A DNA stretch of 40,000 nucleotides, from the NCBI RefSeq assembly GCF_036512875.1, contig NZ_AP028978.1, positions 3,304,211 through 3,344,210 of the forward strand. The letters are read 5' to 3'. Position 1 is the stretch's first letter. Each line of letters opens with the position of its first letter. The position numbers and the translations under genes were made by a program. The notes under the pieces were generated by a model, which was given only the letters and a program-made list of their open reading frames with translations, did no database searches and was not told where the DNA came from. The DNA is from Xenorhabdus taiwanensis (GTDB taxonomy: Bacteria; Pseudomonadota; Gammaproteobacteria; Enterobacterales; Enterobacteriaceae). This document shows positions 21,548-36,569 of this stretch, one piece after another.

Positions 21548-22627
21548 TTATTCGTCTAGATATTCCATCGCAACACGTGAGGTCAATTTCGTAATCAGCT
21601 CATAAGCACTGATCCCCGAATGCTCCGCAATTTTTTCAACTGGCAGGGTATTCCCCCAAAGGATAACTTCGTCCCCAACTTTATCCTGACATGTTGGTCC
21701 CAGATCCACAGTAATCATATCCATAGATACACGGCCAACAAGTGGCACTTCCCGACCATTGATAAATACTGGTGTACCGACAGGTGCACTACGGGGATAG
21801 CCATCACCATATCCTATTGCCACAACGCCAAGACATGTGTCTCGTTCACTGCTCCACGTACCTCCATATCCTACTGCTTCTCCCGCTTTGTGTTTACGTA
21901 CGGCAATTAAGCTGGATTTGAGTGTCATGGCAGGGAGTAAATTAAAATCGTCAGCGGTTTTATCTGCCATCGGCGAAGCACCATACATCATGATGCCGGG
22001 ACGAACCCAGTCCAAATGCGCCTTTGGCCATAATAAAATCCCCCCTGATGCAGAGATGGATTTCTCGCCAGCTTTATCCACAATAAATGCCATGAAGCGC
22101 TCAATTTGTTGCTGGGTCGTTTCAACTGTAGGTTCATCTGCACGGCTAAAATGGCTGATGATATTAACGGGTTGCTCAACATTACGACAGCGGCTCAGAC
22201 GTTGATAAAATGCGTCTGCTTCATCGATCCTGATACCCAGACGGTGCATTCCTGTATCGAGTTTCATCCACACTTTAATCGGATGGGACAAATCCGCCTG
22301 TTCCAAGGCTTCAAGCTGCTCAATGCTATGCACGACGGTTTCAATATGATTGACGACTAAAACGGGGAGATCTGCCGCTTCAAAAAAACCTTCTAATAGC
22401 AAGATTGGCTTGACGATCCCGCCACTGCGCAGGGCAAACGCTTCCCCAATGCGAGCGACACCAAAGCAATCAGCATCTTCCATTGTGTGCGCAGTTTCTA
22501 ATAAACCATGTCCATAAGCGTTTGCTTTCACAACTGCAATCAGTTTACTGCCGGGAGCTTGTACTCTCACCTGTTGCAAATTGTGTCGCAGAGCGCGGCG
22601 GTCGATAACAGCAGTTGCCGCTTTCAT
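21548..22627 (-). CDS. alr: Alanine racemase (biosynthetic)
   Basis: The 359-aa product has the [13 protein letters not shown]-lysine motif and is colinear with E. coli Alr. The dnaB-alr-tyrB order matches E. coli. Confidence 0.95.
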
Positions 22628-22730
22628 TCCATCCCCTTTTTATCATTATTCAGTCAGGTTTGATAAATAACAGCCTATCTTCAATGTTGATGACTAAAGT
22701 TATTTGAACACAAACGATAGGCACTTGGAT

Positions 22731-24140
22731 TTATTCGTCACTGTAACTCGGTCCAGCATAATTATCGAATCGTGACCATTGACCATTAAATGTCAGCCTT
22801 ACTGTGCCTATAGGGCCGTTACGCTGTTTACCAAGAATGATTTCTGCCACACCTTTCAGTTCACTGTTATCGTGATAAACCTCGTCACGATAGATAAACA
22901 TGATCAAGTCAGCATCCTGTTCGATAGAGCCTGATTCACGTAGATCGGAGTTAACCGGACGCTTATCGGCTCGCTGTTCCAAACTACGGTTAAGCTGGGA
23001 GAGCGCAACAACCGGCACTTGAAGCTCTTTTGCCAATGCTTTTAGTGAGCGGGATATTTCCGCAATTTCCAATGTTCGGTTGTCAGATAAAGAAGGTACT
23101 CGCATCAATTGCAGGTAGTCGATCATAATCAAACTGAGCCCACCGTGTTCGCGGAAAATTCGTCGCGCACGGGAACGCACTTCTGTTGGCGTTAAACCAG
23201 ATGAGTCATCGATATACATATTGCGTTTTTCCAGCAAAATTCCCATTGTGCTGGAAATTCGTGCCCAATCCTCATCATCAAGTTGACCGGTACGAATACG
23301 TGTTTGATCTACGCGGGACAGGGATGCCAGCATACGCATCATAATCTGGTTGCCGGGCATCTCAAGGCTGAAAATCAAAACAGGCTTATCCTGCATCATT
23401 GCCGCGTTTTCACACAGGTTCATCGCAAAAGTCGTTTTACCCATTGAAGGACGCGCCGCTACGATAACTAAATCTGATTTTTGCAATCCTGCGGTTTTCT
23501 TATCCAGATCTTGATAGCCGGTAGAAACACCTGTTACGCCATCATGCGGGCGCTGATAGAGCTGTTCAATTCGTTCAACGGTTTCTTCCAGGATCTGTTC
23601 AATGCCTTTTGGGCCCTCGTCTTTATTTGCCCGATTTTCTGCGATCTGAAATACGCGTGATTCAGCCAAATCCAACAGCTCTTCGCTGGTTCGCCCTTGT
23701 GGATCATATCCTGCATCGGCAATTTCATTGGCTACCGCGATCATATCGCGTACTACCGCACGTTCTCGGACAATATCAGCATAAGCATTGATATTCGCCG
23801 CACTTGGGGTATTTTTTGACAATTCAGCAAGATAGGCAAACCCTCCGACATTATCAAGTTCGCCATTCTGTTCAAGAGATTCCGATAATGTGATCAGGTC
23901 GATAGGTTTGCCCGTTTCGAGCAAACGCTGCATTTCAGCGAAAATACGCCTGTGTGGTCGGCTAAAAAAGTCATTACTAGTAACCCGTTCGGATACATTA
24001 TCCCAACGTTCATTATCCAGCATCAAACCGCCTAACACGGATTGCTCTGCTTCCAAAGAGTGTGGTGGAAGTTTCAGCCCTTCCACTTGGCGATCTTTTG
24101 GTTCAGCCATACTATTGTTAGTTGGTTTTTTTCCAGCCAT
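22731..24140 (-). CDS. dnaB: Replicative DNA helicase
   Basis: The 469-aa product has PPHS.EAEQSVLGG at the N-terminus, a Walker A motif (ARPSMGKTTFA) and IMIDYLQLM. It is colinear with E. coli DnaB. Confidence 0.97.
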   Translation of the reverse strand: MAGKKPTNNSMAEPKDRQVEGLKLPPHSLEAEQSVLGGLMLDNERWDNVSERVTSNDFFSRPHRRIFAEMQRLLETGKPIDLITLSESLEQNGELDNVGGFAYLAELSKNTPSAANINAYADIVRERAVVRDMIAVANEIADAGYDPQGRTSEELLDLAESRVFQIAENRANKDEGPKGIEQILEETVERIEQLYQRPHDGVTGVSTGYQDLDKKTAGLQKSDLVIVAARPSMGKTTFAMNLCENAAMMQDKPVLIFSLEMPGNQIMMRMLASLSRVDQTRIRTGQLDDEDWARISSTMGILLEKRNMYIDDSSGLTPTEVRSRARRIFREHGGLSLIMIDYLQLMRVPSLSDNRTLEIAEISRSLKALAKELQVPVVALSQLNRSLEQRADKRPVNSDLRESGSIEQDADLIMFIYRDEVYHDNSELKGVAEIILGKQRNGPIGTVRLTFNGQWSRFDNYAGPSYSDE

Positions 24141-24324
24141 GTATACCGCATCAATACACTAAATAAAAAAACGAAATAGGACATCAGTATACGCCATGAA
24201 AACAGCCTTGAGTAATTATATATAGTCTGCAATGATTTCAGATATATTAACGCTATTTGCAGCTATATTCGTTGCAAACGTGCGAGGCTGTTCCCAATAT
24301 TTCTAACATAATGAGAGTATTACC

Positions 24325-25308
24325 ATGGCAAAACACATCGAATTATCCGCTATTGGCGGCCCAGAAGTACTCCGATATTGTGAATTTACCCCTGCTGACC
24401 TTGCTCCCGATGAAGTACAAGTCGCAAACAAAGCCATCGGCATTAATTATATCGATACCTACATACGCAGTGGCTTATATCCTCCAGCCAGCCTACCTTG
24501 TGGTCTGGGAACAGAAGCCGCAGGCATTGTCACCAAAGTTGGCGCCAATGTGACATCAATTAAAGTCGGTGATCGTGTGGTTTACGCCCAGTCAGCCTTA
24601 GGTGCTTACAGTGAAATACACAACGTTTCTGAAAGTAAATTAGCACTGTTACCGGATGAGATCTCGTTCGAACAAGCGGCTGCGTCATTTTTAAAAGGCC
24701 TGACTGTTTATTATCTGTTCAATTTAACACATAAGCTCCAGGCAGGAGAAACAATTCTATTTCATGCTGCCGCTGGTGGTGTTGGTTTGATTGCCTGCCA
24801 GTGGGCAAAAGCATTGGGTGCGAAATTAATTGGCACAGTCGGATCAGAAGAAAAAGCGGCACTCGCCAAAACAGCTGGAGCATGGCAAACCATCAACTAT
24901 CGTCGCGAGAATATTGTAGAACGTGTTCTGGCTATTACTGGCGGGGAAAAAGTTGGTATCGTATATGATTCTGTTGGCAAAGAGACATGGCTGGATTCAC
25001 TGGATTGCCTGAAACGACAAGGTTTGATGGTCAGTTTTGGTAACGCTTCAGGCCCCGTAACCGGAGTGAATTTGGGTATCCTCAATCAGAAAGGTTCACT
25101 GTTTCTCACCCGCCCTTCTCTTAATGGCTATATCACTACGGGCGAAGAGTTAGCAGAAGCCAGCAAGACACTGTTTGGTTTAATTTCCAGCGGCAAAATC
25201 AATGTGGATGTCCCAGAAAATCAGAAATTTCCATTGAGAGAAGCAGTAAGAGCACACCAGACGCTGGAAAACCGTGCAACCCACGGCTCCAACTTATTGA
25301 TTCCATAA
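24325..25308 (+). CDS. qorA: NADPH:quinone oxidoreductase (zeta-crystallin family)
   Basis: The 327-aa product is the same length as E. coli QorA. It shares long identical strings (AIGIN.IDTYIRSGLYPP.SLP.GLGTEAAGIV.KVG, HAAAGGVGLIACQWAKALGAKLIGTVG). Confidence 0.93.
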   Translation: MAKHIELSAIGGPEVLRYCEFTPADLAPDEVQVANKAIGINYIDTYIRSGLYPPASLPCGLGTEAAGIVTKVGANVTSIKVGDRVVYAQSALGAYSEIHNVSESKLALLPDEISFEQAAASFLKGLTVYYLFNLTHKLQAGETILFHAAAGGVGLIACQWAKALGAKLIGTVGSEEKAALAKTAGAWQTINYRRENIVERVLAITGGEKVGIVYDSVGKETWLDSLDCLKRQGLMVSFGNASGPVTGVNLGILNQKGSLFLTRPSLNGYITTGEELAEASKTLFGLISSGKINVDVPENQKFPLREAVRAHQTLENRATHGSNLLIP

Positions 25309-25333
25309 TTTCAGACAAAATTCCTGAACGGAT

Positions 25334-26371
25334 TTACATCCGCTCTGTCACCATTTCCAACGCTTTTTCAACAACCATAATATCAGCGCCCTGCTTATGG
25401 GCGTTTTCACTTAAATGACGGCGCCACTGACGAGCCCCAGGAATTCCCTGGAAAACCCCTAAAATATGGCGGGTGATATGCCCTAAATAAGTGCCTTTGG
25501 ATAGCTCTTGTTCGATATAAGGATAAAGCGCCTTAACCACCTCAACCGTATTAGTCACTGGAACTGTTTGGTCAAACAATTCACAATCCACATGTGCCAG
25601 AATGGAGGGATTTTGGTAGGCTTCTCGCCCAATCATCACACCATCCATATACTGCAAATGCTGTTTGGCTTCTTCCAGTGATTTAATGCCGCCATTAATT
25701 GAAAGCGTCAGTTGAGGGAAATCCCGTTTCAATTGATAGACTCGCGGATAATCCAAGGGCGGAATTTCACGGTTTTCTTTCGGGCTTAACCCCGATAGCC
25801 ACGCTTTACGTGCATGGATAATAAAATTATCGCAATCGCTGTTTTTCACGACAGTATCAATGAAATCACACAGAAACTCGTAGCTATCCTGTTCATCAAT
25901 TCCGATACGGGTTTTAACAGTAACAGGGATATCCACTACATCCTGCATTGCCTTAACACAATCAGCTACCAGCGCCGCTTCTCCCATCAGGCAAGCACCA
26001 AAACGGCCATTCTGCACACGATCAGAAGGACAACCCACATTCAGATTGATCTCATCATAACTTCTTTCCTGCGCGATCTTGGCACATTGCGCCAATGCCT
26101 GAGGATCACTACCTCCCAATTGCAGTGCCAATGGATGTTCTTGCTCGTTATAGGCCAGATAATCCCCTTTGCCATGAATAATCGCGCCTGTTGTAACCAT
26201 TTCCGTGTAAAGCAGCGCTTCCTTGCTTAATAAGCGATGAAAGTAACGGCAATGGCGGTCAGTCCAGTCTAACATGGGGGCAACAGAAAAGCGGGAAGGT
26301 TTGAATTCTCCCGCGCTCGTTGATATTACAGTGAATTTATTAGGTTTTTGTATCTGTATATTTTCGTGCAT
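25334..26371 (-). CDS. dusA: tRNA-dihydrouridine(20/20a) synthase
   Basis: The 345-aa product contains [38 protein letters not shown] and [17 protein letters not shown], as in E. coli DusA. If the adjacent prophage used the dusA 5' attachment site, its extreme 5' end may be prophage-derived. Confidence 0.95.
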
Positions 26372-26458
26372 TTCAGGCTATTTTGGGCTATTTTTGAATT
26401 ATTAGCACCCCAAACAGAACCCCATTAATTTGGGGACCTGAATAGGAGAGTATTAAAG

Positions 26459-27550
26459 ATGGCCTATTATAGCATAGAAAAACGCCCACGCGCAGATGGC
26501 ACCGTCCGCTATCGTTGCACTGTTGGTGTTAAGTCTGGTGGCAAATATATCTATAGAGAGAACCGTACATTCGGAAAACAATCCCACGCTAAGACATGGG
26601 GTGCTCAGCGAGTGGCTGAGCTGGAACAAAACGGAATTCCCACGCAGAATGATACCGAGGATTTAACAGTCGGTGATTTGCTGTACAAATACATCAATGA
26701 TCCAACTTTGGGTGGAAAAGCAGGAAGAACTAAAAAATATGTACTAGATATGCTCTTGGATAGTGAATTAGCGAAACTAACACTTTCAGAGCTATCAGTT
26801 AGTCATGTCATCGAGTATTGCAAGCAAAGACATTCTACTGGTATTACTCCATCAACCATTAACCACGATGTCAGCTACTTAACGTCAGTATTAAAATCAG
26901 CCAAACCAATCTATAACATAGACTATGTATCAAATCCTGCATATGAAGCGCGCCCTTTACTAACTCAAATGGGGTTGATTGGAAAGTCTCAACGTCGTAG
27001 TCGAAGGCCTGCGCAAGATGAGATAGATAAACTTCTTGTTGGATTACGTAAGCGCAGTAATCATAGAGAAGGTAAAATACCCTATGAAGATATCTTAAAT
27101 TTCTCAATCTTAAGCTGCATGCGCATAGGTGAGGTCTGCAAAATTAGATGGGATGATGTAGACGAAAAACAAAGGTCTGTCATTGTGAGGGATCGGAAAG
27201 ACCCTCGAAAGAAAACAGGTAATCATATGTCTGTTCCGTTATTGGGGGAAGCATGGGAAATAGTTCAACGTCAACCAAAAACAAGTGAACTAATATTTCC
27301 TTACAACGCCAAAAGCGTAACAGCAGGATTTCAGAGAGTCCGCAACGCTCTAGGCATCGAAGACCTCCGCTACCACGATCTACGTAGAGAAGGTGCAAGT
27401 CGCTTATTTGAAGCTGGCTTTTCCATTGAAGAGGTAGCACAAGTTACAGGCCATCGTTCACTGAATGTATTATGGCAGGTGTATACGGAACTATACCCGC
27501 AATCGTTGCATGAAAAATTCAACAAACTAATGCAGCAGAAAGAAGAGTAA
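26459..27550 (+). CDS. int: Phage tyrosine integrase, probably of the dusA-specific integrase family
   Basis: The 363-aa product has catalytic-domain motifs: CMRIGEVCKIRW (Arg), HDLRREGASRL (HxxR) and GHRS...LWQVYTELY (His/Tyr). An AGGAG Shine-Dalgarno precedes it. It lies 87 bp from, and divergent to, the dusA start, with phage tail genes downstream. Confidence 0.9.
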   Translation: MAYYSIEKRPRADGTVRYRCTVGVKSGGKYIYRENRTFGKQSHAKTWGAQRVAELEQNGIPTQNDTEDLTVGDLLYKYINDPTLGGKAGRTKKYVLDMLLDSELAKLTLSELSVSHVIEYCKQRHSTGITPSTINHDVSYLTSVLKSAKPIYNIDYVSNPAYEARPLLTQMGLIGKSQRRSRRPAQDEIDKLLVGLRKRSNHREGKIPYEDILNFSILSCMRIGEVCKIRWDDVDEKQRSVIVRDRKDPRKKTGNHMSVPLLGEAWEIVQRQPKTSELIFPYNAKSVTAGFQRVRNALGIEDLRYHDLRREGASRLFEAGFSIEEVAQVTGHRSLNVLWQVYTELYPQSLHEKFNKLMQQKEE

Positions 27551-27947
27551 TCCATAGGACAGAAATCCGCCCTTTAACCTACGGGATAATCCCGTATGCA
27601 CATGTCCGGCCGCCTCAAATTGAGGTTTCCGAGAATATCAATAAGTTATCATCAAGCTGCTCAGTATTTAATCACTCCGTTTGAAACGGAAGGAAAGCGG
27701 GGTTGTCGACCAATAAAGATAATAAAATCAATGCGTTTAATCCTTTTGTCCAGCATGTAGGACTTCCGCAATGGTTGAGCCAAAGTGACGGCCTCGGACA
27801 AATCAATAAGTTGCAAAGGTGGCAAATCCCACCTTTATCTAACCTGTTGATTTTGCTTATTTCTGTCACTGTGCCGGAAATTAAGGAAATCAAGGGGTTG
27901 GAGGAAGGCCGCGTAGTGCGCAGCCTAAGTTGGGAATAAAGTTGCGA

Positions 27948-28856
27948 TTAACGCCAGTTGAAGTAGAAGCGCTTGGTTTGACCTGTTTGCTTCAATATTT
28001 CACCTAATTTTTCTATTTCAGCATTATTTTCATACCAATTTCCCCAATAATATTTGTTGTGAGAGCCTTTAGGTGAACTCATACCCAAATTATAAGTTAT
28101 ATTATCCACTGTTATATAAAGAGATTTGTTTTTGAATAAATTTTTCATTTGTTGATAACTTGCATCATTTTCATGAGAACTTATTAATAAGTTAATCCCC
28201 GATGCTTTAGATTTATTATTTTTACCCCAGTAAAAAATATCTATTTTTTCAATGGCTTTTTTATTTTGGATTACATTTAAGGTGCCAAAAGCTGCTTCAT
28301 TTCCTGTACTTAGGTATCTATCATCGACAAGATATCCCCAATCATCAGAGCTTTCCCCTTGGTTACTCCTATAACGTCCAGCGCCTAAGGTAAGATCAAA
28401 TGCAAACATACTATCATCCAAATCAGGCTTTAATTCAGGTTCAGACGTTGGTTCTGGAGTAGGTTCGGGTTCAGGCTTCACTGGCTCTTCTTTCTCTTCC
28501 TTATCTTCAAAAAACTCCCAATCACACGCCATCATATCTTCCTGTGTTGGCTGCCACGGTACAAGGTTACCATGCTCATTGCGTAGGTCGATGTGTGTCA
28601 GGTAATCGTACTTGGTTCCAACGGCTACACCATCAACCGCGTAAGCACTGCCTTCTTCTACAGCCAAGTCACTCACACGTGGTGTAATCGCCAGATACAT
28701 TCCTTTATCACCCCAGACAGAACGGGTAACACGTTTGCGTAGTTTTAATTGAATCAGCGCCCAAGAGAATGAACCCACTGGTGCAATAAAGCAATCACAC
28801 TGATATTGTTTCGGATCGAACGGACATTCACATTCAGGCTTAATAACGTCAGACAT
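27948..28856 (-). CDS. DUF2829 (Tad2-like) domain protein fused to a C-terminal domain of unknown function
   Basis: Residues ~28-125 (FSWALIQLKLRKRVTRSVWGDKGMYLAI......NLVPWQPTQEDMMACDWEFF) follow the DUF2829 pattern as I remember it: an A-l-k-G-kkv-R-W-g-kgmyl start and a vpW-pSq-D-la-DWe end. A Cys-rich N-terminal leader (ECECPFDPKQYQCDC) precedes this domain. A PEPEPTPEPTSEPELKP linker and an AT-rich 150-aa Asn/Lys/Tyr-rich domain follow it. An AAGGAA Shine-Dalgarno is present. Confidence 0.5.
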   Translation of the reverse strand: MSDVIKPECECPFDPKQYQCDCFIAPVGSFSWALIQLKLRKRVTRSVWGDKGMYLAITPRVSDLAVEEGSAYAVDGVAVGTKYDYLTHIDLRNEHGNLVPWQPTQEDMMACDWEFFEDKEEKEEPVKPEPEPTPEPTSEPELKPDLDDSMFAFDLTLGAGRYRSNQGESSDDWGYLVDDRYLSTGNEAAFGTLNVIQNKKAIEKIDIFYWGKNNKSKASGINLLISSHENDASYQQMKNLFKNKSLYITVDNITYNLGMSSPKGSHNKYYWGNWYENNAEIEKLGEILKQTGQTKRFYFNWR

Positions 28857-29278
28857 ACTATTTCCTTGTTTAATTATTAACTGCTGGACAGTCCGAATAT
28901 ATTAACGAGTGAGGAGGGTTGAATGAATTGATTGGGATTGTGTGGGGGTTGGTACAAAGGGGTATCAGGATAATATAACCGACGATACAGTTTTAATCTG
29001 ATATTTTTTATCACATTTCGATAAATTAGCTGTCTTTTCACTTCACAGATTAGGAAAATTCCGATCACATATTAGGATTATGATTTAGTATGGTGAGTGT
29101 TGGTTTGTCAATGATACCCATTTAGCTAGTAGTTTGGCGAGCCGCTTTGAGTAAACATGAGAATAAAATCAGTCGGATGTTTTTTAACATCAGATGGAAA
29201 ATTGGTTATATCAATATCAATTTTAACGATATTGGTGTTAATTGGTTTAAAAACGTTATTATGTATAAGTGAACAGAT

Positions 29279-30118
29279 ATGAAGCTTAATTTCCATGCAG
29301 TTTATACCGAAGACAAAGAATTCAATAAGTTCTCAATAGCACTTGAAAGCAAGATAAACCATTCGGTTATTCTCCCTGAAAAACACGCTTTAGAGTGCAG
29401 TGGGTATTACCTATACATGCATAAAATAAGCAATCATTCATACTTGTTCACAAAAACAAATGATGGAGACTTAATAAAAAAGATAAATAAAAGTACGGCT
29501 TCTGTGGAGGATATAAAAAACAGTTTGGCTAGCGATGAATCTCTTGGGTTTCCATCATTTTTATATATAAATAATGACGTTATAGGTTATGCTTCATCAA
29601 TATATGGACCAAGCATAAGGGAATTAAAAATATACCTTTGTAAAAAATTAAATTTCAATAGCGATCACAATTTGGTCATAGAACCATTAATAAGAAACAT
29701 CAGCAGTAAAGAAACTGAACGCATGGTGTTCATTGGTAGGACAACGTTAAAAACTGAAGCAGATACTAGCACGTTTCAAAAGGTTTTGGCTGCATTCGGA
29801 GCTTCTGACGTTAGAGAGGAGCTTTACGAAGGGATAGAGGTTATAATTAAACCAAGAAAAAACAAAGATATAAAGAGAGTTGCATCAAAAATAATTAATA
29901 ATCCAGATAACGAATTTAGTGATGTTCATATAAGAGCCAGGGAAGAACTAGGGGATCAACTAACTGACTTCTATTTATCTGGACAAGGGATTATCAGTGC
30001 AAATCTCAAGAAAGCAACAAATCAAGAAATAGCGATGGAAATGGAAAATTGCTACGAAAGGACAAAGCATGTTATCATTAAAGCAATGAATGAGTCCATT
30101 TCTAGCGGATTAATGTAG
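29279..30118 (+). CDS. rexA: RexA-like phage-exclusion protein
   Basis: The 279-aa product is the length I recall for lambda RexA. Strings such as YLYMHKI..HSYLFTKTND, KINKSTASVEDIKNSLASDESLGFPSFL, FIGRTTLK, VIIKPR.NKDIK.VA and FSDV.IRA.EE.GD agree with my memory of lambda RexA. The gene is strongly AT-rich. Confidence 0.6.
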   Translation: MKLNFHAVYTEDKEFNKFSIALESKINHSVILPEKHALECSGYYLYMHKISNHSYLFTKTNDGDLIKKINKSTASVEDIKNSLASDESLGFPSFLYINNDVIGYASSIYGPSIRELKIYLCKKLNFNSDHNLVIEPLIRNISSKETERMVFIGRTTLKTEADTSTFQKVLAAFGASDVREELYEGIEVIIKPRKNKDIKRVASKIINNPDNEFSDVHIRAREELGDQLTDFYLSGQGIISANLKKATNQEIAMEMENCYERTKHVIIKAMNESISSGLM

Positions 30119-30151
30119 GAGAGTAAAACGTTTTTCACAGGAGGTAATTTA

Positions 30152-30583
30152 ATGAAAATAAAGATATTGCCTGCTATTGCGTTTGTTGCTGCTCCTTATC
30201 TTTTTATTTGGTTAGGACATTTTATTTTTCGTTATTATTTTAATGATGTTACTTTTTCATCTAATAAAGTTTCATTAGGAACAGCCATTAGTTCTTATGC
30301 CGGAACTACAATAGCCATTTTAATTGCCGCTTTAACATTTGTTATTGGGATACGAAATAACAATATGGTAAAAATAAGAAAATATGGTTACATGGCTTCA
30401 ATAGTGGTGATGTATTCCTTTACTTTTGTTGAACTTGGGGCTTTGTTTCTTACTGGTATATTGCTGATATCAAATATTAATGGCATCCCTTTAGCTACAA
30501 TATCCTTATTTATCGCAATTGCATCTTTTATACATATTTGCCTACTTTTAATGCAACTGTTTTTACTAGCCAGTAAAAAATAA
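30152..30583 (+). CDS. rexB: RexB-like four-TM membrane protein
   Basis: The product is 143 aa, against 144 aa recalled for lambda RexB. It has four hydrophobic helices. Strings SSYAGTTIAILIAALTF, KIRKYGYM, FVELGALF and IASFIHICLLL agree with my memory of RexB. A strong AGGAGG Shine-Dalgarno lies within the 33-bp gap after rexA. Confidence 0.6.
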   Translation: MKIKILPAIAFVAAPYLFIWLGHFIFRYYFNDVTFSSNKVSLGTAISSYAGTTIAILIAALTFVIGIRNNNMVKIRKYGYMASIVVMYSFTFVELGALFLTGILLISNINGIPLATISLFIAIASFIHICLLLMQLFLLASKK

Positions 30584-30586
30584 ACC

Positions 30587-30609
30587 AGCCCTCCCCACGA
30601 GGGCTTTTC
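30587..30609 (+). terminator. Terminator of the rexAB-like cassette
   Basis: agccctc-cccac-gagggct forms a perfect 7-bp GC-rich stem followed by tttcc. It starts 4 nt after the rexB-like stop. Confidence 0.6.
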
Positions 30610-30726
30610 CCATCACGTCCCCACCTCCCCCTGCCTCACATTCCACACCGAATCTGCCGGCATCTGGACACGGATATCTAAGCGGGTGCCTTCGGGGATG
30701 TCACAGGGGCGCGCTGCCCCTGATTG

Positions 30727-31143
30727 TTATTCTGGCGCTTTAGGCCAGTCAATGTTGGGTACTGTCGAACAGTCTACTCGGTTGAGCAGGACACGGTATT
30801 TTTTCCATGCGAGGAGTGCGGTCTTCTCTTCCTTAGTTGCCATGTCGAGGTCAACCGCGTCCTGCCAGATATCAATTTTCTCTTTGGCTATATTGAGCAA
30901 GTAGCGTTTTTCCTGTTCTGCTTGTTGCTGCAACTGTTCGGGTGTTGGCGGTGGGATATCCACCCATGCGGGCAATCCGTCATCCCCCGCTATACACATT
31001 TTTCCCGCTGGCGGTGTCATGAATTTGCGATAAACAGCCTCACTCACCTCAACCCCGTCGTCCGGCCACGTCCCCGCATCAATATACAATTGTTGCCAAT
31101 CAATGGGGTAAAATGCGTTATTTTTTGCACTATAAACGTACAT
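30727..31143 (-). CDS. tfa: Tail fibre assembly protein (Tfa/gpU-type chaperone)
   Basis: The 138-aa product begins MYVYSAKNNAFYP... It has a PTPEQL..QAE.EK coiled region and a ...ALLAWKKYRVLLNRVD...DWP C-terminus typical of Caudovirales tail-fibre assembly proteins. It lies directly downstream of the fibre gene. Confidence 0.8.
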   Translation of the reverse strand: MYVYSAKNNAFYPIDWQQLYIDAGTWPDDGVEVSEAVYRKFMTPPAGKMCIAGDDGLPAWVDIPPPTPEQLQQQAEQEKRYLLNIAKEKIDIWQDAVDLDMATKEEKTALLAWKKYRVLLNRVDCSTVPNIDWPKAPE

Positions 31144-31151
31144 ATTTCACC

Positions 31152-32204
31152 TCAATATCCAATCGCGATCCACGTACAATTCAACGGAACAGTATTAATA
31201 AATGCGTTTCCTGTGGAAACAGCACAACCCACAAAAAACTCATTGAGTGAGATAGGATAGCTGAGTACTACTTCAAAACCAGCAGCATCATTAGCGTTAG
31301 CACTGATCGTCACCGCACCAACTACACGGGTAAATGGTCGCGGAAATCTAACAAATTGGCCATCACGGTATTTGCCACTGCCCCACTGAATAATGACCCC
31401 GTTCACTGTGTCCCGATACCATCCATTCGTCTCTAACAACGCCTCGGTCTGTGGATTATTCGGACTGTAAACTCGAATCCCACCCGCTTCATACACCTTA
31501 CCGGCTGACACGTAGCCAGTCGCATCGACATTACCATTGACGGTTCCGCCCGTTTTAGGGTAAGCACCAATGTCATCGGGCGTGGGTTTATTATTCGCGC
31601 TGTAAACCCTGATCCCTCCCGCTTCATACACGGCATTACTTGATAAATATCCCGTAGCATCAATACTTCCGTAGACTACTCCGCCTGTTTTGGGGTAGGC
31701 ATTTTTCGCGAGATCTACGGTTCCCGCCAAACCGAGGTTTTTCACAAACGCCTGTTTATCATAAATATCGGCGCCGTTCTTGTTCTTGTCTAACATCGCC
31801 GCATACAGTGCCTTAATCGACTGCAATGACACCGTCTGACCATTCGGCAATGTCACGCTGACCGTCCCATTCTGTGTCATCCATTTATCCATGTTCTGGA
31901 GGAACTGCGTGATATAACTGTTGTTAGCCACCAAGTGCCGGACGCCATCTGAGATGGAATCAGGAACGGTGGTCTGAATCTGGTATTTTGCGTAATTTAG
32001 GGTAAGGAAAGCGCTATCCGCCAGTACCAGTTCGGTATCGGAGTTCACCGCCTGAATCATGTGCAATAAGTTGTTGTTGCCTGACCGGATTAATATAACC
32101 TGACCGGGGGCAACGCCGTTGATATTCGATTTAAATCGTGTGCCCGTGCCGCGGACAATAGCCGAGCCGGACACGGTGCTGATTGTGCCTTGTGAATAGA
32201 ACAT
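31152..32204 (-). CDS. Side tail fibre protein
   Basis: Its position is downstream of J and upstream of tfa. It contains two tandem ~44-aa repeats, AYPKTGG.V.G..DATGY.S...VYEAGGIRVYS.NN (nt ~31458-31700). I prefer the ATG at 32204 (MFYSQGTIS..., CAGGAA Shine-Dalgarno, 13 nt after the upstream stop) over the track start at 32243. Confidence 0.8.
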   Translation of the reverse strand: MFYSQGTISTVSGSAIVRGTGTRFKSNINGVAPGQVILIRSGNNNLLHMIQAVNSDTELVLADSAFLTLNYAKYQIQTTVPDSISDGVRHLVANNSYITQFLQNMDKWMTQNGTVSVTLPNGQTVSLQSIKALYAAMLDKNKNGADIYDKQAFVKNLGLAGTVDLAKNAYPKTGGVVYGSIDATGYLSSNAVYEAGGIRVYSANNKPTPDDIGAYPKTGGTVNGNVDATGYVSAGKVYEAGGIRVYSPNNPQTEALLETNGWYRDTVNGVIIQWGSGKYRDGQFVRFPRPFTRVVGAVTISANANDAAGFEVVLSYPISLNEFFVGCAVSTGNAFINTVPLNCTWIAIGY

Positions 32205-32217
32205 GGTGGGGTTCCTG

Positions 32218-32874
32218 TTAGACGTCGTAAAGAGCGCAGTCAATATACGGGCTGGTGAGATCTTCTATACTGAACTCAACAATCCAAGAGAGGGGACCTG
32301 ATACGGCTGCCGGAACAAATTGTGTGGAATGACCGTTGAAGAAGGCAGAAAAAGAGGTGTCCCTGTATTGCAGTATGGGTAATTCTCCGGGTGGTTCGAT
32401 TGACGAGCTAATCAAGCCTGTCGTTTGCATTAACAAGGCTTTCTTTCCCCGCAATGTCATTTGCTGGTTGGTGTTATATTCCCCCTCAATCGCCAGCGGG
32501 TTTGTATCACTGGTCATCACACATTTCCCGTTCTCATCCCAGACAGCAATCCCCCAATCAGGGACAGGCTGCGGATAAACCAGGGTAAAAAGGTAAATCT
32601 CACACACCGTTGGGGTACGGGAATCTGGCGCTGACAACTCAATATGCCAGCGGCTTTTTCCACTACTGAGTTCACCATAAGGTGCATTCTCTACACTGTC
32701 TGTATGGGCGCACATAAATGCCATGCACGGCTGCGTTGTGCTAATGTGCGTATCTATGCCTTCATACCATCTGCCAATGGTAACCGATATTTTCCTAACA
32801 AAAGAAAGTGGTGTCGTTTTGGGTGTCCACCACGGGATGCCTTCATTCGTTGTTAAAAATGCGCCCCAGTCCAT
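32218..32874 (-). CDS. Phage tail-region protein of unknown function (two copies of a ~100-aa domain)
   Basis: The 218-aa ORF is packed tightly in the tail operon between J and the fibre gene. It has an N-terminal DWGAFLTTNEG....TPL motif and a mid-protein DWGIAVWDENG......NPL motif. Confidence 0.6.
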   Translation of the reverse strand: MDWGAFLTTNEGIPWWTPKTTPLSFVRKISVTIGRWYEGIDTHISTTQPCMAFMCAHTDSVENAPYGELSSGKSRWHIELSAPDSRTPTVCEIYLFTLVYPQPVPDWGIAVWDENGKCVMTSDTNPLAIEGEYNTNQQMTLRGKKALLMQTTGLISSSIEPPGELPILQYRDTSFSAFFNGHSTQFVPAAVSGPLSWIVEFSIEDLTSPYIDCALYDV

Positions 32875-32880
32875 ATATCC

Positions 32881-33180
32881 TCACGCTGTATAATACGCAA
32901 TCAGCCAGCCCTCAGCAGCCACACTGCGCCCTGTTGAAATAATGATTTGGTTGTCTCTCACCAAAAACTGGCGTTTGGCATTCGGCCATTCCCCCGTTTG
33001 TGTGCACATAAACACATACGACAGCCGCAGCCCCTGACTCATCGGCTCACGGGGGATAGTGAGTTCGCCTGTCGTCTGGCCGCTGTTCAGCTTCATAAAT
33101 CCCGCATAAAGAAAAGGGCGGATGCCTGTATTACGCTGCCGCCCCTGCTCGTCCCACACACCAAAACCATAGTCACTCAT
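32881..33180 (-). CDS. Phage tail-region protein of unknown function (single copy of the same domain)
   Basis: The start of this 99-aa ORF overlaps the J stop (ATGA coupling). Its N-terminal DYGFGVWDEQG......RPF motif is related to the motifs in the downstream 218-aa ORF. Confidence 0.6.
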   Translation of the reverse strand: MSDYGFGVWDEQGRQRNTGIRPFLYAGFMKLNSGQTTGELTIPREPMSQGLRLSYVFMCTQTGEWPNAKRQFLVRDNQIIISTGRSVAAEGWLIAYYTA

Positions 33181-36100
33181 CGAAATTGCCCTATATATCC
33201 CATTGCCGCCCTGACCCGTCCGTTTTGGTCATAACACGCAATTGCCCCATTCGCCCAGCGCAACCCTGCCTGAGAACGCATGTCATTAAATTCAAAAGCA
33301 CCGGTGGCCGCATTAATCAAAAAGCCTGCCCTGTACTGTACGTAGTTCTTTGACCTGATGGCATCAGATAAGATAATTTCCCTGATATAGCCTTTATCAA
33401 TAAACCCGTCCCTGATAAACACCTGACCGTTTTTGACCGCCATAAACGGCTCCAATTTGCCGTTGGTCGGGTTATAGAACGCAAAATTATTCGCAGAAAA
33501 TCCAATATACGACTCCAGATTGCCGTTCTTAAATTCACCGCTAATCACCATGCCACCCGCGTTATATTTTGTCCCATTGCGGTTAATGGTGATATTCACG
33601 CTGTGGATGGCATAGCCGGCATTCTGGTTAAATTCCGCCTGCATTTTGCTGTTGATGATGGCCTGTTGTTCGCCAAATTGCGCCTGAACCTGCTGTTTTG
33701 ATTCAGCCACCGCTTTCTGTGTACTGGATATGGCCTGTTTGTTAGTCACCACATCCGCCGCAATTTTACCCACGCTATCGTTAGTGTTCCCGATGCTGGT
33801 ACGGATTTCGGTAAATTGCTGGCCAAACGATTTATCCCGCTCAGCTATCGTGGTCTCAACCGTTTTGATACGGGATGCGTTAGCCCCAACCGACGAATTA
33901 ACTTCCGTTATTCTCTGCGCCCACGCCTCATTATCCGTTGCCCGTACCTGCCAGAGTTCGCTAATCTGCGCCTTACTCTCCCCGTCACGCACCATCAGTT
34001 CACGGGATAATTGCTGTTGCGCATTGGTGAGTTCAAGGGCGCTTTCAGCGTTCCAGTTCATGTCGGATTGCAGGCGCTTGCCCGCTTCGGCGGAAAGGAA
34101 CTGGTTGCCGGCTGCCTTGACTATCCAGTCTGTATCAGAGGAAGACTCCCCTCGCATAAACCTTGTCCACGGGGATTGATTACCCGACTTATCCACCAGC
34201 CGTGCACGGAACCAAAATGCCACACCTGCCGCCAATCCTTGCATAGTATGCGTACGCTGCGGATAGGGAATATCAGCCAGCAGCATCAACCCCTCACCAT
34301 CCCTCGTCCGGCTGTACTGGATTTCGGTTTTCAGTGTGTCGTCAGTCTGGGCGGCAAAACCCCAATCTAACTGGATGCCAAAGATAATCGGTGTGGTTCT
34401 GAAAGCTAACGGTACGGGCGGGTTACCTTCTTTCCCTTTCAGGCGGGTTTCCGGTGCATTCGCCCAGATACTGGATATCTCAGCCGCATTAATTGCCCTC
34501 ACCCGTGCCTGATAGCGACCAGAATAGACGTTTGGCACTTCAAAGCCTTGCGTCGAGGTTCGGGGGGCGGATATCCAGTTGCCATTATCCCGCCGCCACT
34601 CAGCCTCATACGCAATCGCACCCTCAGCCGCATCCCATGTCACGCGCAATGTGGTGACTGCAATACCCTGATTGACAACTGAATAACTGTTGATGGTGAC
34701 ATTTTTTGGCGGTGACTGGACGCCGGGCGGGATAACAGAAATGGGGCGTTCTTCAATGCGGGTGCCTGTGTCAATGCGGGCGTATTTGTCGGGATTATGC
34801 TCAACAGCAGTAATCTCAAAGGACACGCCATCTTCATTCTCTTTAATGCCCGTCACCCTGAATTGCTGAATGGCTAAATCCGTTGCGTCAATCGCCCAGA
34901 CACATTCAGGCTCTGGCGTTTCACTGTAGGCTGTCGTCACTGTGATAACCTGCCCGTTCACGGCCTGAATGGTGCGCCCCTCGGCTTTACCTGATGGCAG
35001 ATTTAGGATCAATCGCTCACCCACTTTTGCTGCGGATATTCTGTCCAGCGTAATGTTACGCCCATTCGCCGAACTCACGCGCCCACCCAATACGCGACCG
35101 GAAAACATTTCATCAGCCACCCCGATAATGTATCCGGGTAACGGTATTTTACCATCCAGCCCCACCGTAAACGTGACCATCCGATCATATTCGTTGGTGT
35201 GCAATATCCACTTCCCGCGCCGGATAGCCTCACTCTGGCGGGTACAGCCGATAGCCGTCACATCCGCCTGTTTCACATTATAACGACGGATTAACCGGTT
35301 ATCGAAAACAGGCTCTATTGCATCCTGATAGCCGTTCTGTGGATCTGACCAGCTTACCATTGCCGTACTGTAATGAGTTTTCTCGCTGGAGCTGGCATAA
35401 ACAAATTTACCGTCACGCACATTGGCACGTGTGTAGATAAAATCCACATCACGCGGCATATCCGCCAGCACGTTCATATTATTGTTCGCCCAATAGGTCA
35501 TCCCCCGAAAGATACCGGCGATATCCCGTAAGACCGTCCACGCATCCTCTTGTGACTGGATATAAACATTGCAGGTGTGACGCGGCTCCATCCCTCCCTT
35601 GCCATCAGGAACCGGCTGATCGCAATATTGGGCAATGCGGTACAAATCCCATTTTGCCAGACTCAGGTTTTCAGCCTTAACCCGCGTGCCGATGCTGAAC
35701 CGATCATTAATCATCAGGTCATACAGCACCCACGCCGGGTTATCTGTCCATGCCCATTTAAACTGCCCTGACCAGACACCGGAATAGCTGCGGCTTTCAG
35801 TGTCATAATTATCGGGCACGCGGATAACACGCATTTTCGGTTCACAGGATATTTGCGGAATATTACGAAACTGCTTGGCGTCAAACTGGACAAATAATAG
35901 CGCTGTTTCGGGGTAACTGAGCTTGGCGTCAATCACTTCCGTAATGGCCTCCACAACCATTGCATCGGCAATCCGGATACTGTTCTGCTTTGGTGTCAGG
36001 CGACGTACCCGCACCTGCCAGCCAGAATGGGCTTTCGGTAAATCCACACGGTGTGAGCGTTCATATTTTGTCGTCGTTTTGCCATCCGCAGCCAGCGTGG

Positions 36101-36569
36101 GCAGCTCCTGATACGAACCGCCATCTGTTGCCACGTCAATAGTATAATCAATGCGATACCCCACTGTATCACCGTTTTCTTCCTGTTTTTGCAGTTGCGG
36201 CCACGAAAGCCGAATACGCACCGCAGATAACTGAGTATTGGTGACCGATCTGACCCATGATTCGTTCAATTCCGTTCCGACGGTCAGTTCATTTTCTACA
36301 GCTGGCATGCCGGGAATATAATCCTGATGCGGGGTTCCGTGACGAAATTCCCATTTCACCCCCTCAAAATTGGGCTTACCCTCCGGGCCAATAATCGGCG
36401 TGTTATCCAGAAAGATGTTGGTGCCATTCAGTTCTCCCGCGAACTCGCCCTCACCCAATGCCAGTAAGATTTTGGCATACGAGGTTGACTGCAATGAGTC
36501 CGGTGATTCAACAGGAGTACGAGGGCTGTCGCTACCGCCTTTGCTGCCCTGAATAAGATGATTTCTCAT
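33177..36569 (-). CDS. J: Tail tip / host specificity protein J
   Basis: The product is 1130 aa, against about 1132 aa for lambda J. The N-terminus GSKGGSDSPRTPVESPDSLQSTSYAKILLALGEGEF parallels the start of lambda J. Fibronectin-III-like repeats occur in the middle, and the gene sits after I. Confidence 0.95.
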   Translation of the reverse strand: MRNHLIQGSKGGSDSPRTPVESPDSLQSTSYAKILLALGEGEFAGELNGTNIFLDNTPIIGPEGKPNFEGVKWEFRHGTPHQDYIPGMPAVENELTVGTELNESWVRSVTNTQLSAVRIRLSWPQLQKQEENGDTVGYRIDYTIDVATDGGSYQELPTLAADGKTTTKYERSHRVDLPKAHSGWQVRVRRLTPKQNSIRIADAMVVEAITEVIDAKLSYPETALLFVQFDAKQFRNIPQISCEPKMRVIRVPDNYDTESRSYSGVWSGQFKWAWTDNPAWVLYDLMINDRFSIGTRVKAENLSLAKWDLYRIAQYCDQPVPDGKGGMEPRHTCNVYIQSQEDAWTVLRDIAGIFRGMTYWANNNMNVLADMPRDVDFIYTRANVRDGKFVYASSSEKTHYSTAMVSWSDPQNGYQDAIEPVFDNRLIRRYNVKQADVTAIGCTRQSEAIRRGKWILHTNEYDRMVTFTVGLDGKIPLPGYIIGVADEMFSGRVLGGRVSSANGRNITLDRISAAKVGERLILNLPSGKAEGRTIQAVNGQVITVTTAYSETPEPECVWAIDATDLAIQQFRVTGIKENEDGVSFEITAVEHNPDKYARIDTGTRIEERPISVIPPGVQSPPKNVTINSYSVVNQGIAVTTLRVTWDAAEGAIAYEAEWRRDNGNWISAPRTSTQGFEVPNVYSGRYQARVRAINAAEISSIWANAPETRLKGKEGNPPVPLAFRTTPIIFGIQLDWGFAAQTDDTLKTEIQYSRTRDGEGLMLLADIPYPQRTHTMQGLAAGVAFWFRARLVDKSGNQSPWTRFMRGESSSDTDWIVKAAGNQFLSAEAGKRLQSDMNWNAESALELTNAQQQLSRELMVRDGESKAQISELWQVRATDNEAWAQRITEVNSSVGANASRIKTVETTIAERDKSFGQQFTEIRTSIGNTNDSVGKIAADVVTNKQAISSTQKAVAESKQQVQAQFGEQQAIINSKMQAEFNQNAGYAIHSVNITINRNGTKYNAGGMVISGEFKNGNLESYIGFSANNFAFYNPTNGKLEPFMAVKNGQVFIRDGFIDKGYIREIILSDAIRSKNYVQYRAGFLINAATGAFEFNDMRSQAGLRWANGAIACYDQNGRVRAAMGYIGQFR

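What the first reader, a model, noticed from the sequence alone, without database searches (positions are those of the whole stretch)
29279..30609. RexA/RexB-like exclusion cassette placed as an AT-rich moron between int and the tail-fibre genes, away from any immunity region
- **Seen in the sequence:** A 279-aa soluble protein is followed 33 bp later (AGGAGG Shine-Dalgarno) by a 143-aa protein with four TM helices. A stem-loop terminator closes the pair. The cassette is much more AT-rich than the adjacent tail genes.
- **Established knowledge (from memory):** Lambda RexA is 279 aa and RexB is 144 aa with four TM segments. Several motif strings match my recollection of both proteins. Lambda rexAB is co-transcribed with cI from PRM/PLIT in the immunity region.
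- **Inference:** This is a Rex-type abortive-infection or exclusion module. It has been uncoupled from the repressor operon and relocated to the region equivalent to lambda's b region, with its own 420-bp control region. Its regulation and possibly its trigger would then differ from the lambda paradigm. If the Rex similarity is weaker than I believe, this is an uncharacterised two-gene soluble-plus-membrane effector system and would be even more interesting.
Basis: partly seen in the sequence, partly recalled or inferred. Interest (0 to 1): 0.7.

Follow-up and report, generated by a model that had tools for sequence, protein, structure and literature searches.

The report
Repressor-less RexAB phage-exclusion cassette
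This is a true relative of phage lambda's classic RexA/RexB anti-phage gene pair, but it sits as a self-contained cassette at the integrase/tail-fibre end of a prophage instead of behind the phage repressor gene; that is an unusual placement of a well-known system, not a new system.

Summary
ORFs of 279 aa (29279-30118) and 143 aa (30152-30583) lie 33 bp apart, with an AGGAGG site, a closing hairpin and GC of 0.30-0.34. They are unambiguous RexA and RexB homologues: Pfam 1e-50 and 8e-42, PADLOC 2e-93 and 2e-46. They are 46% and 50% identical to lambda RexA (PDB 8TWQ) and RexB.

The placement is also as claimed. The order is dusA | int | Tad2-like gene | rexA-rexB | tfa, tail fibre, gpJ. There is no repressor gene or remnant in the window.

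In 19 other distinct locus types rexA directly follows a gene, and 18 of these encode an HTH + Peptidase_S24 CI-type repressor. This includes the closest canonical relative (75% aa), whose DNA homology to the window starts exactly at the rexA ATG.

A 92%-identical copy in Xenorhabdus bovienii shares the unit 29043-30608 (236-bp upstream region, rexA, rexB, terminator). It sits at another chromosomal site, again next to tfa. dN/dS is 0.09 for rexA and 0.14 for rexB.

A PLIT-like internal promoter and a TIMM-like terminator are retained. Repressor-less rexAB also occurs in at least two other viral-contig lineages, so uncoupling is recurrent.

Verdict: a new member of a known kind with a non-canonical, apparently unreported placement. 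Interest is modest. Function and promoter are inferred, not shown.

The parts
29043..29278 (+). Conserved upstream control region of the cassette (236 bp). It replaces the cI gene found upstream of rexA in canonical loci.
   Evidence: Homology to the X. bovienii copy (L002 9762-11328, 89%) begins at 29043. The upstream part alone is 84% identical, so it has diverged less than synonymous sites (pS 0.25-0.33). Homology to the canonical copy L001 begins only at the rexA ATG.
29043..29077 (+). Tandem direct repeat TCACAGATTAGGA / TCACATATTAGGA, start-to-start spacing 22 bp. It is a candidate protein-binding (operator-like) site and overlaps the -35 of a weak promoter candidate (ATCACA-N16-TAGTAT, 29064-29091).
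   Evidence: Repeat found. This core is the only upstream segment shared by all four module copies: window, L002 and two in L022. Promoter candidate conserved in L002. Function is inferred.
29242..29269 (+). Alternative weak promoter candidate TTGGTT-N16-TATAAG, 10 nt before the rexA ATG. A third candidate is TTAACA-N17-TATATC at 29184-29212.
   Evidence: Relaxed scan; the site is conserved in L002 with a 17-nt spacer. The standard scan found no +-strand promoter in the spacer. Unresolved.
29279..30118 (+). rexA: 279-aa soluble DNA-binding sensor component.
   Evidence: Pfam RexA 9.5e-51. PADLOC RexA 2.3e-93. Lambda RexA PDB 8TWQ 6e-74 over residues 1-272, 45.8% identity. D215 and R219 are conserved and K221 is R (alignment; residue roles from PMC11077077). 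dN/dS 0.09 against L002.
30049..30078 (+). PLIT-like internal promoter (TTGCTA-N18-TG-TATCAT) inside the 3' end of rexA. It is predicted to give rexB-only transcripts.
   Evidence: Found. It lies at the same offset (770-799 nt into rexA) as the only +-strand promoter-like site in the lambda rex region and in L002. A comparable site at a similar position is present in most family members. PLIT is described as lying in the distal end of rexA. Activity not tested.
30139..30144 (+). AGGAGG Shine-Dalgarno for rexB.
   Evidence: Read. A strong rexB SD and a weak rexA SD are seen across the family.
30152..30583 (+). rexB: 143-aa membrane effector with four TM segments.
   Evidence: Pfam RexB 7.8e-42. 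PADLOC RexB 2e-46. 50% identity to lambda RexB, gap-free over 143 aa, with four collinear hydrophobic segments and a conserved E94 in the third. dN/dS 0.14 against L002.
30587..30605 (.). GC-rich hairpin 4 nt after the rexB stop, in the position of lambda TIMM. It marks the right end of the cassette.
   Evidence: dG -12.1, z -4.4. Homology to both L001 and L002 ends at 30608. Lambda has a terminator at the same position after rexB (TIMM).
30704..30722 (+). Second hairpin with a T-rich tail, just before the convergent tfa stop. It probably blocks read-through into the tail genes.
   Evidence: Terminator-like site. It lies outside the conserved cassette.
26459..27550 (+). Left flank: tyrosine integrase next to the 5' end of dusA (25334-26371, -). 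This is the prophage end.
   Evidence: Pfam Phage_integrase and Int_N; Dus for the neighbour. PHROG integrase.
27948..28856 (-). Left neighbour, divergent from rexA: 302-aa Tad2-like + DUF7823 protein. It is not part of the cassette.
   Evidence: Pfam. Matches to PDB Tad2 entries. Absent from L002.
30727..32243 (-). Right flank, convergent: tail-fibre assembly gene (30727-31143) and tail-fibre gene (31152-32243). gpJ follows at 33177-36569.
   Evidence: Pfam Caudo_TAP, Gp53-like_C and GpJ domains. PHROG tail families.

Best explanation
This is a true RexA/RexB two-gene phage-exclusion (abortive-infection) module. It is carried as an autonomous accessory cassette (29043-30608) at the integrase-proximal, tail-fibre-adjacent end of a lambda-like prophage. 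The prophage is integrated at dusA in a Xenorhabdus/Photorhabdus-clade bacterium.

Inferred working, by homology with lambda:
- In the lysogen, RexA (a soluble DNA-binding dimer) senses an event of superinfecting-phage development.
- RexA then activates RexB, a four-TM inner-membrane protein.
- Membrane potential and ATP collapse, and the infection aborts.

The difference from lambda is transcriptional. The pair is not the distal part of the cI (PRM) operon. It must instead be driven from its own 236-bp upstream region, which contains a conserved tandem repeat. rexB keeps a second, internal PLIT-like promoter, and a TIMM-like hairpin ends the unit.

Shown here: homology, gene order, absence of a repressor, cassette boundaries, purifying selection and conservation of the signals. 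Inferred: promoter activity, expression in the lysogen, the exclusion phenotype and the trigger.
For: **Identity**
- Pfam RexA and RexB, PADLOC RexA and RexB.
- PDB 8TWQ 6e-74.
- RexB 50% identical to lambda RexB, gap-free, with four hydrophobic segments and E94 conserved.
- The DNA-binding residues D215, R219 and K/R221 are kept (with PMC11077077).

**Placement**
- alr-dnaB-qor-dusA | int | Tad2-like | rexAB | tfa-fibre-gpJ.
- No cI remnant and no domain in any small ORF.

**Canonical norm**
- 18 of 19 distinct upstream genes are HTH + S24 repressors. This includes the 75% relatives L001 and L004.

**Cassette boundaries**
- Homology to L001 runs 29279-30608.
- Homology to X. bovienii L002 runs 29043-30608. 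L002 is at a different site (aspS side) and is again beside tfa.

**Functional constraint**
- dN/dS is 0.09 and 0.14 at dS 0.31-0.43.
- The upstream region is more conserved than synonymous sites.

**Retained signals**
- PLIT-like site at the same offset as in lambda.
- Hairpin terminator.
Against: - No consensus-grade +-strand promoter is found upstream of rexA. There are only weak candidates.
- No expression or phenotype data exist.
- One related Xenorhabdus copy (L022) has a frameshifted rexA, so repressor-less copies can decay.
- The prophage's immunity region lies outside the window. Control by the prophage repressor acting at a distance, or a second rex copy, cannot be excluded.
- The mechanism of lambda Rex itself is still debated: exclusion versus tuning of the lysis-lysogeny switch.
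Confidence: 0.8

Rival explanations
1. The pair is kept mainly for the non-exclusion roles proposed for lambda Rex. RexA would act in trans on the prophage's own CI/Cro switch to favour commitment to lytic growth. RexB would stabilise replication protein O or antitoxins. Physical linkage to cI would simply be dispensable.
For: RexA is reported to bind CI and to bias the switch, and RexB to interact with O. The DNA-binding residues are retained. Proteins act in trans, so relocation does not abolish such roles. The PLIT-like promoter that keeps rexB on after induction is conserved.
Against: The near-identical cassette sits in what appear to be two different prophages or sites in two Xenorhabdus species, with non-homologous flanks. 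Repressor specificities vary widely among rex-linked cI genes: mean column identity is 31% in A3. A portable cassette adapted to one repressor is therefore less likely than a generic host-protective function. This reading is not exclusive of the best explanation.
Confidence: 0.2
2. int + Tad2-like gene + rexAB form a separate small dusA-integrating island, lying in tandem with a prophage whose end is at tfa. They would not be part of that prophage.
For: Integrase, an anti-defence-like gene and a defence pair together resemble a mini defence island. All are lower in GC than the tail genes.
Against: No att-like direct repeat links the dusA/int junction with the rexB-tfa spacer. In X. bovienii the same cassette abuts tfa with no integrase or Tad2-like gene beside it. 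The cassette therefore travels with the tail-fibre end, not with int.
Confidence: 0.07
3. It is a silent or decaying passenger: horizontally acquired AT-rich DNA that is not expressed (for example H-NS-silenced) and has no current function.
For: There is no strong promoter. GC is very low. A related copy in X. budapestensis carries a frameshift in rexA. Symbiopectobacterium copies are rearranged or IS-disrupted.
Against: Both ORFs are intact. They are under strong purifying selection relative to the X. bovienii copy despite dS of 0.31-0.43. The upstream region and the internal promoter-like site are conserved.
Confidence: 0.05

Closest known systems
Phage lambda RexA/RexB (cI-rexA-rexB operon; PDB 8TWQ for RexA)
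   Same: Same two families, sizes (279 / 143-144 aa), order and spacing logic. RexA is 46% and RexB 50% identical. Both have four TM segments with E94 in the third, weak rexA and strong rexB ribosome sites, an internal PLIT-like promoter at the same offset and a terminator right after rexB.
   Different: There is no cI upstream and the pair is not in an immunity region. It lies between int and the tail-fibre genes, is convergent with the tail operon, and has a 236-bp private upstream region carrying a tandem repeat.
cI-rexA-rexB of 'Salmonella phage MS2 LVA' (MZ614453, L001) and an unnamed Logan contig (L004): the closest canonical relatives
   Same: RexA 75% and RexB 73% identical. DNA is 72% identical from the rexA ATG to just past the terminator.
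   Different: There rexA directly follows an HTH + S24 repressor with a divergent cro-like gene. Homology to the window stops exactly at the ATG.
Xenorhabdus bovienii rexAB (GCA_029104665, JAILSN010000035; annotated 'protein rexA')
   Same: RexA 92% and RexB 91% identical. It has the same 236-bp upstream region, the same terminator, the same tfa neighbour and no repressor.
   Different: The other flank is different: aspS and ~1.2 kb of repeat-rich non-coding DNA in place of int and the Tad2-like gene.
Rex-like systems of actinophages (Sbash gp30/31, Butters, CarolAnn) and P. putida RexABpp
   Same: Each pairs a soluble RexA-like DNA binder with a four-TM partner that gives phage defence. In Sbash, Butters and Rubeelu the genes are inverted and separated from the repressor by several genes. 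In P. putida they are separated by two genes.
   Different: These are only remote homologues (HHpred- or structure-level), and all remain in the neighbourhood of the repressor. The window pair is a close lambda-type homologue, and no repressor lies anywhere between the prophage's integrase end and the window's edge.

Membership tests
RexAB (lambda-type exclusion system; PADLOC RexAB, Pfam PF15969 + PF15968) | RexA-family protein | tested here: met
   PF15969 9.5e-51, full length. PDLC02339 2.3e-93. 8TWQ 6e-74 over residues 1-272.
RexAB (lambda-type exclusion system; PADLOC RexAB, Pfam PF15969 + PF15968) | RexB-family membrane protein with four TM segments | tested here: met
   PF15968 7.8e-42 and PDLC02340 2e-46. 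50% gap-free identity to lambda RexB, with four collinear hydrophobic segments by Kyte-Doolittle. No dedicated TM predictor was available.
RexAB (lambda-type exclusion system; PADLOC RexAB, Pfam PF15969 + PF15968) | rexA immediately followed by rexB on the same strand | tested here: met
   33-bp spacer, same strand.
RexAB (lambda-type exclusion system; PADLOC RexAB, Pfam PF15969 + PF15968) | RexA DNA-binding and conformational residues (lambda D215, R219, K221) | tested here: met
   D215, R219 and R221 in the pairwise alignment. Residue roles come from PMC11077077.
RexAB (lambda-type exclusion system; PADLOC RexAB, Pfam PF15969 + PF15968) | RexA two-domain dimeric fold | not tested
   No model was built. 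The fold is inferred from 46% identity along the whole solved chain.
RexAB (lambda-type exclusion system; PADLOC RexAB, Pfam PF15969 + PF15968) | Exclusion of T4 rII and other phages with membrane depolarisation, dependent on both genes | not testable with these tools
   Needs cloning and phage challenge.
Lambda immunity-region arrangement of rex (cI-rexA-rexB, PRM/PLIT/TIMM) | rexA directly downstream of, and co-oriented with, a CI-type repressor gene | tested here: not met
   Upstream there is a 422-bp non-coding spacer, then a divergent Tad2-like gene. tblastn with the L001 repressor finds nothing significant in the window. The arrangement is met in 18 of 19 other distinct locus types.
Lambda immunity-region arrangement of rex (cI-rexA-rexB, PRM/PLIT/TIMM) | Internal promoter in the distal end of rexA for rexB-only transcription (PLIT) | tested here: inconclusive
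   A consensus-level site lies at the same offset as in lambda and is conserved in the family. Coding constraint also acts on these bases, and activity was not measured.
Lambda immunity-region arrangement of rex (cI-rexA-rexB, PRM/PLIT/TIMM) | Intrinsic terminator immediately after rexB (TIMM) | tested here: met
   The hairpin at 30587-30605 is stable. It occupies the same position as the lambda terminator. Its U-tract is short.
Moron (autonomous accessory transcription unit in a phage genome) | Own terminator, and base composition distinct from the flanking phage genes | tested here: met
   Low GC is intrinsic to rexAB in all contexts.
Moron (autonomous accessory transcription unit in a phage genome) | Own promoter | tested here: inconclusive
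   Only weak candidates are found, inside a conserved 236-bp upstream region.
Moron (autonomous accessory transcription unit in a phage genome) | Discrete unit found between otherwise unrelated or different flanks in different genomes | tested here: met
   The same 1.57-kb unit has different left flanks in the window and in X. bovienii. A related prophage lacking the insert was not found.

The most novel reading that the evidence does not exclude
The Xenorhabdus-type cassette is a natural separation-of-function variant. RexAB would be maintained by selection purely as a host-protective exclusion device, independent of any role in the CI/Cro switch. Its conserved upstream module, with the tandem TCACA(G/T)ATTAGG repeats overlapping a weak promoter, would be an operator for a different regulator (prophage- or host-encoded). 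Rex expression would then be conditional rather than tied to repressor synthesis.
Probability: 0.2. Interest if true: 0.5.

Novelty: new member of a known kind. Interest (0 to 1): 0.3.

Why it matters
Rex was among the first abortive-infection systems described, and its real biological role is still disputed. It may be phage exclusion, or it may be fine-tuning of the lambda genetic switch. Recent papers use adjacency to the repressor as part of the argument for the switch role (PMC11077077; PMC12894663).

This copy is intact, selectively constrained and has no repressor beside it. A sister copy sits at another site, and other lineages show independent repressor-less placements. Together these show that linkage to cI is not obligatory for retention of the pair.

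They also provide ready-made natural constructs for asking what RexAB does on its own. Beyond that, the locus is an ordinary prophage accessory-gene region.

Tried and rejected
- **Near-identity DNA searches:** searching the cassette against phage records and complete E. coli genomes gave no match.
- **Exact-sequence look-ups:** the window's RexA and DnaB are not on record. The source genome is therefore not in those collections.
- **Host assignment:** inferred only from DnaB (95% to Photorhabdus) and RexA (92% to X. bovienii).
- **RNA genes:** the tRNA and Rfam scans of the window found nothing.
- **cI remnant:** a search upstream of rexA found none.
- **Leaderless rexA mRNA:** I considered this because rexA has no Shine-Dalgarno site and a promoter candidate ends 10 nt upstream. 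I dropped it as unnecessary, because a weak rexA SD is family-wide, lambda included.
- **AT-richness as a sign of recent transfer:** rejected. rexAB is AT-poor... i.e. low in GC relative to its surroundings in lambda and in L001 as well.
- **Flanking short repeats (27675-27901, 28975-29112, 30634-30690):** I tested whether these are abundant host REP elements or cassette ends. They have no other copy in the window. They do recur around the Xenorhabdus loci. Their role is unresolved.
- **Upstream module as a widespread portable element:** only the X. budapestensis contig in IMG/VR carries it.
- **Genome-contig hits in unrelated phyla:** discounted as probable lambda contamination, since they carry lambda cI-rexA-rexB verbatim.
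- **Tandem-island hypothesis:** no att-like repeat was found.
Full report
**1. Observation**

One is a 279-aa ORF at 29279..30118 (+). The other is a 143-aa ORF at 30152..30583 (+). They are separated by 33 bp that contain AGGAGG 7 nt before the second ATG.

The second protein has four long hydrophobic segments; the first has none.

A GC-rich hairpin (30587-30605, dG -12.1 kcal/mol, z = -4.4) follows the second stop codon. A further hairpin with a T-rich tail lies at 30704-30722.

GC is 0.336 for the first gene, 0.299 for the second and 0.329 for the upstream spacer. The tail genes are 0.495 and the chromosomal part is 0.439.

**2. Identity**

- The 279-aa protein matches Pfam RexA (9.5e-51, full length) and PADLOC RexA (2.3e-93).
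- The 143-aa protein matches Pfam RexB (7.8e-42) and PADLOC RexB (2e-46).
- Against solved structures, the only hit is lambda RexA (8TWQ), at 6e-74 over residues 1-272.
- Pairwise identity to lambda RexA is 45.8%.
- Identity to lambda RexB is 50% over 143 residues without a gap. The four hydrophobic segments are collinear, and the acidic residue in the third (E94) is conserved.
- The lambda RexA residues implicated in DNA binding and conformational change (D215, R219, K221; PMC11077077) read D215, R219 and R221 here.

Its fallback of an uncharacterised two-gene system does not apply.

**3. Context in the window**

| Coordinates | Strand | Feature |
|---|---|---|
| 21548-26371 | mixed | Host genes alr, dnaB, a quinone-oxidoreductase-like gene and dusA |
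| 26459-27550 | + | Tyrosine integrase, next to the 5' end of dusA |
| 27948-28856 | - | 302-aa Tad2-like + DUF7823 protein |
| 28857-29278 | – | 422-bp spacer |
| 29279-30583 | + | rexA-rexB |
| 30727 onward | - | Tail-fibre assembly gene, tail fibre, two small accessory genes, gpJ and the minor tail genes, to the window end |

The cassette is thus at the integrase-proximal end of a lambda-like prophage, convergent with the tail operon. No tRNA or Rfam family is present. No small ORF between int and rexA has any Pfam domain. tblastn with a rex-linked repressor finds no remnant.

The host is a Morganellaceae of the Photorhabdus/Xenorhabdus clade. DnaB is 95% identical to Photorhabdus, and the closest RexA (92%) is from X. 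bovienii.

**4. How unusual is the placement?**

I collected rexA loci from phage records, species-representative genomes, IMG/VR contigs and assemblies. I then classified the gene directly upstream.

Many hits in unrelated phyla carry lambda cI-rexA-rexB verbatim. They look like lambda contamination, so I counted them once.

Nineteen distinct locus types have a 152-262-aa gene directly upstream on the same strand. Eighteen of these carry Peptidase_S24 and seventeen carry HTH_3. The lambda arrangement is therefore the rule. It includes the closest canonical relatives, L001 and L004 (RexA ~75%), where a divergent cro-like gene is also present.

The exceptions are:
- **(a) Xenorhabdus group:** the window, X. 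bovienii L002 and X. budapestensis L022.
- **(b) L030/L031/L034/L051:** rexAB lies antisense inside a tail cluster, next to the tape-measure gene.
- **(c) L055/L060/L061:** the order is int (or the smpB side), a DinI-like gene, rexAB, then an invertase and tail-fibre genes.
- **(d) Symbiopectobacterium:** rearranged or IS-disrupted copies.

Uncoupling from cI has therefore happened several times and is a minority state. I found no paper that discusses it. Two recent studies treat proximity to the repressor as characteristic.

**5. The cassette and its boundaries**

DNA homology to the canonical copy L001 starts exactly at the rexA ATG (29279). It ends at 30608, just past the hairpin (72% identity).

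Homology to X. bovienii L002 runs from 29043 to 30608 (89%). The flanks are non-homologous: aspS and about 1.2 kb of repeat-rich non-coding DNA on the left, and a diverged spacer before tfa on the right.

The mobile unit is therefore a 236-bp upstream region, then rexA, rexB and the terminator. The upstream region stands where cI would be.

Between the two relocated copies:
- dN/dS is 0.09 for rexA at dS 0.43.
- dN/dS is 0.14 for rexB at dS 0.31.
- The upstream region is 84% identical, so it has diverged less than synonymous sites.

Both genes, and probably the control region, have stayed under constraint since they lost the repressor. By contrast, the more distant X. budapestensis copy has a frameshift in rexA.

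**6. Expression signals**

The standard scan finds no +-strand promoter in the spacer. A relaxed scan gives three weak candidates that are conserved in L002:
- 29064-29091
- 29184-29212
- 29242-29269

The first candidate overlaps a tandem repeat, TCACAGATTAGGA / TCACATATTAGGA (29043-29077, 22-bp spacing). That repeat is the only segment shared by all four copies of the upstream module (window, L002 and two in L022). The second L022 copy precedes a different, truncated ORF. This looks like a regulated promoter with an operator, but that is inference.

Inside rexA, a promoter-like site TTGCTA-N18-TG-TATCAT (30049-30078) lies 770-799 nt into the gene. The only +-strand promoter-like site in the lambda rex region occupies the same offset, and so does the one in L002. 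A comparable site at a similar position is present in most family members.

[quoted passage not shown] The hairpin fits TIMM. A weak ribosome site for rexA and a strong one for rexB are family-wide.

Part of the lambda 'three-way control' is thus kept. Only the PRM/cI coupling is lost.

**7. Mechanism**

By homology, RexA senses superinfection and activates the RexB membrane protein. Membrane potential falls and the infection aborts.

Here the pair is predicted to be expressed from its own promoter in the lysogen, independent of repressor autoregulation. The main rival is not exclusive: RexA and RexB could still act in trans on the prophage's own switch and replication proteins. The presence of nearly the same cassette at two sites with different flanks argues for a generic host-protective function instead.

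A tandem-island rival has no support. No att-like repeat is found, and the cassette travels with tfa rather than with int. A silent-relic rival is contradicted by the dN/dS values.

**8. Verdict**

It is, however, a close homologue of a textbook system. Its nearest relative is already annotated 'protein rexA' in public records, and several of its regulatory parts are conserved.

The non-canonical placement is worth noting and experimentally useful, but it is neither unique nor a new kind of system. I rate it a new member of a known kind, with interest 0.3.

Noticed in passing
window 27948-28856 (-): A 302-aa protein with three parts. The N-terminal domain (aa 29-115) matches the Tad2-like anti-Thoeris family: Pfam 4.5e-19, and PDB Tad2 8V3E and ModTad2 9EIB at E~6e-4 across nearly the whole ~88-aa Tad2 chain. 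A Pro/Glu-rich linker follows. The C-terminal part is DUF7823 (3.6e-30). GC is 0.39. It is a candidate anti-defence gene divergent from the rexAB defence cassette, and it is absent from the X. bovienii locus.
   Followed up: partly
window 25334-27550: The integrase (26459-27550) sits 87 bp from the 5' end of dusA (25334-26371, -). This fits, from memory, the known class of dusA-targeting integrases. int and the tail-fibre genes are adjacent in the integrated state, so attP must lie on the far side of int, unlike in lambda.
   Followed up: partly
window 27675-27901, 28975-29112, 30634-30690; L002 9131-9640; L022 308-450, 1206-1932, 3442-3516: Short (50-140 bp) repeat-like segments surround the rexAB cassette in all three Xenorhabdus loci, in both orientations and in several copies. 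They have no further copy in the 26 kb of chromosome in the window. They could be MITE/REP-like elements or recombination scars involved in moving the cassette.
   Followed up: partly
L008-L018 and other genome-contig loci: Species-representative assemblies of unrelated phyla (Shewanella, Kitasatospora, Capnocytophaga, Neobacillus, Bradyrhizobium and others) carry lambda cI-rexA-rexB verbatim, several on ~48-kb contigs. This is most likely phage lambda contamination of public assemblies.
   Followed up: partly
L030 6001-7307, L034, L051; L055 5565-7305, L061 1207-2872: Two further repressor-less placements of rexAB occur in IMG/VR contigs. In one, the pair is antisense inside a tail-gene cluster beside the tape-measure gene. 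In the other, it lies at a prophage end behind a DinI-like gene, next to an invertase and invertible tail-fibre genes (smpB side in L061).
   Followed up: partly
L022 2004-2842: The X. budapestensis DSM 16342 rexA has a frameshift near codon 67, while rexB is intact. This is either decay of the sensor gene or an assembly error.
   Followed up: no
window 32218-33180 (-): Two small accessory genes lie between the tail-fibre gene and gpJ: phrog_425 ('membrane associated protein', moron category) and phrog_557 ('outer membrane protein'). From memory, this is the position of lambda lom.
   Followed up: no
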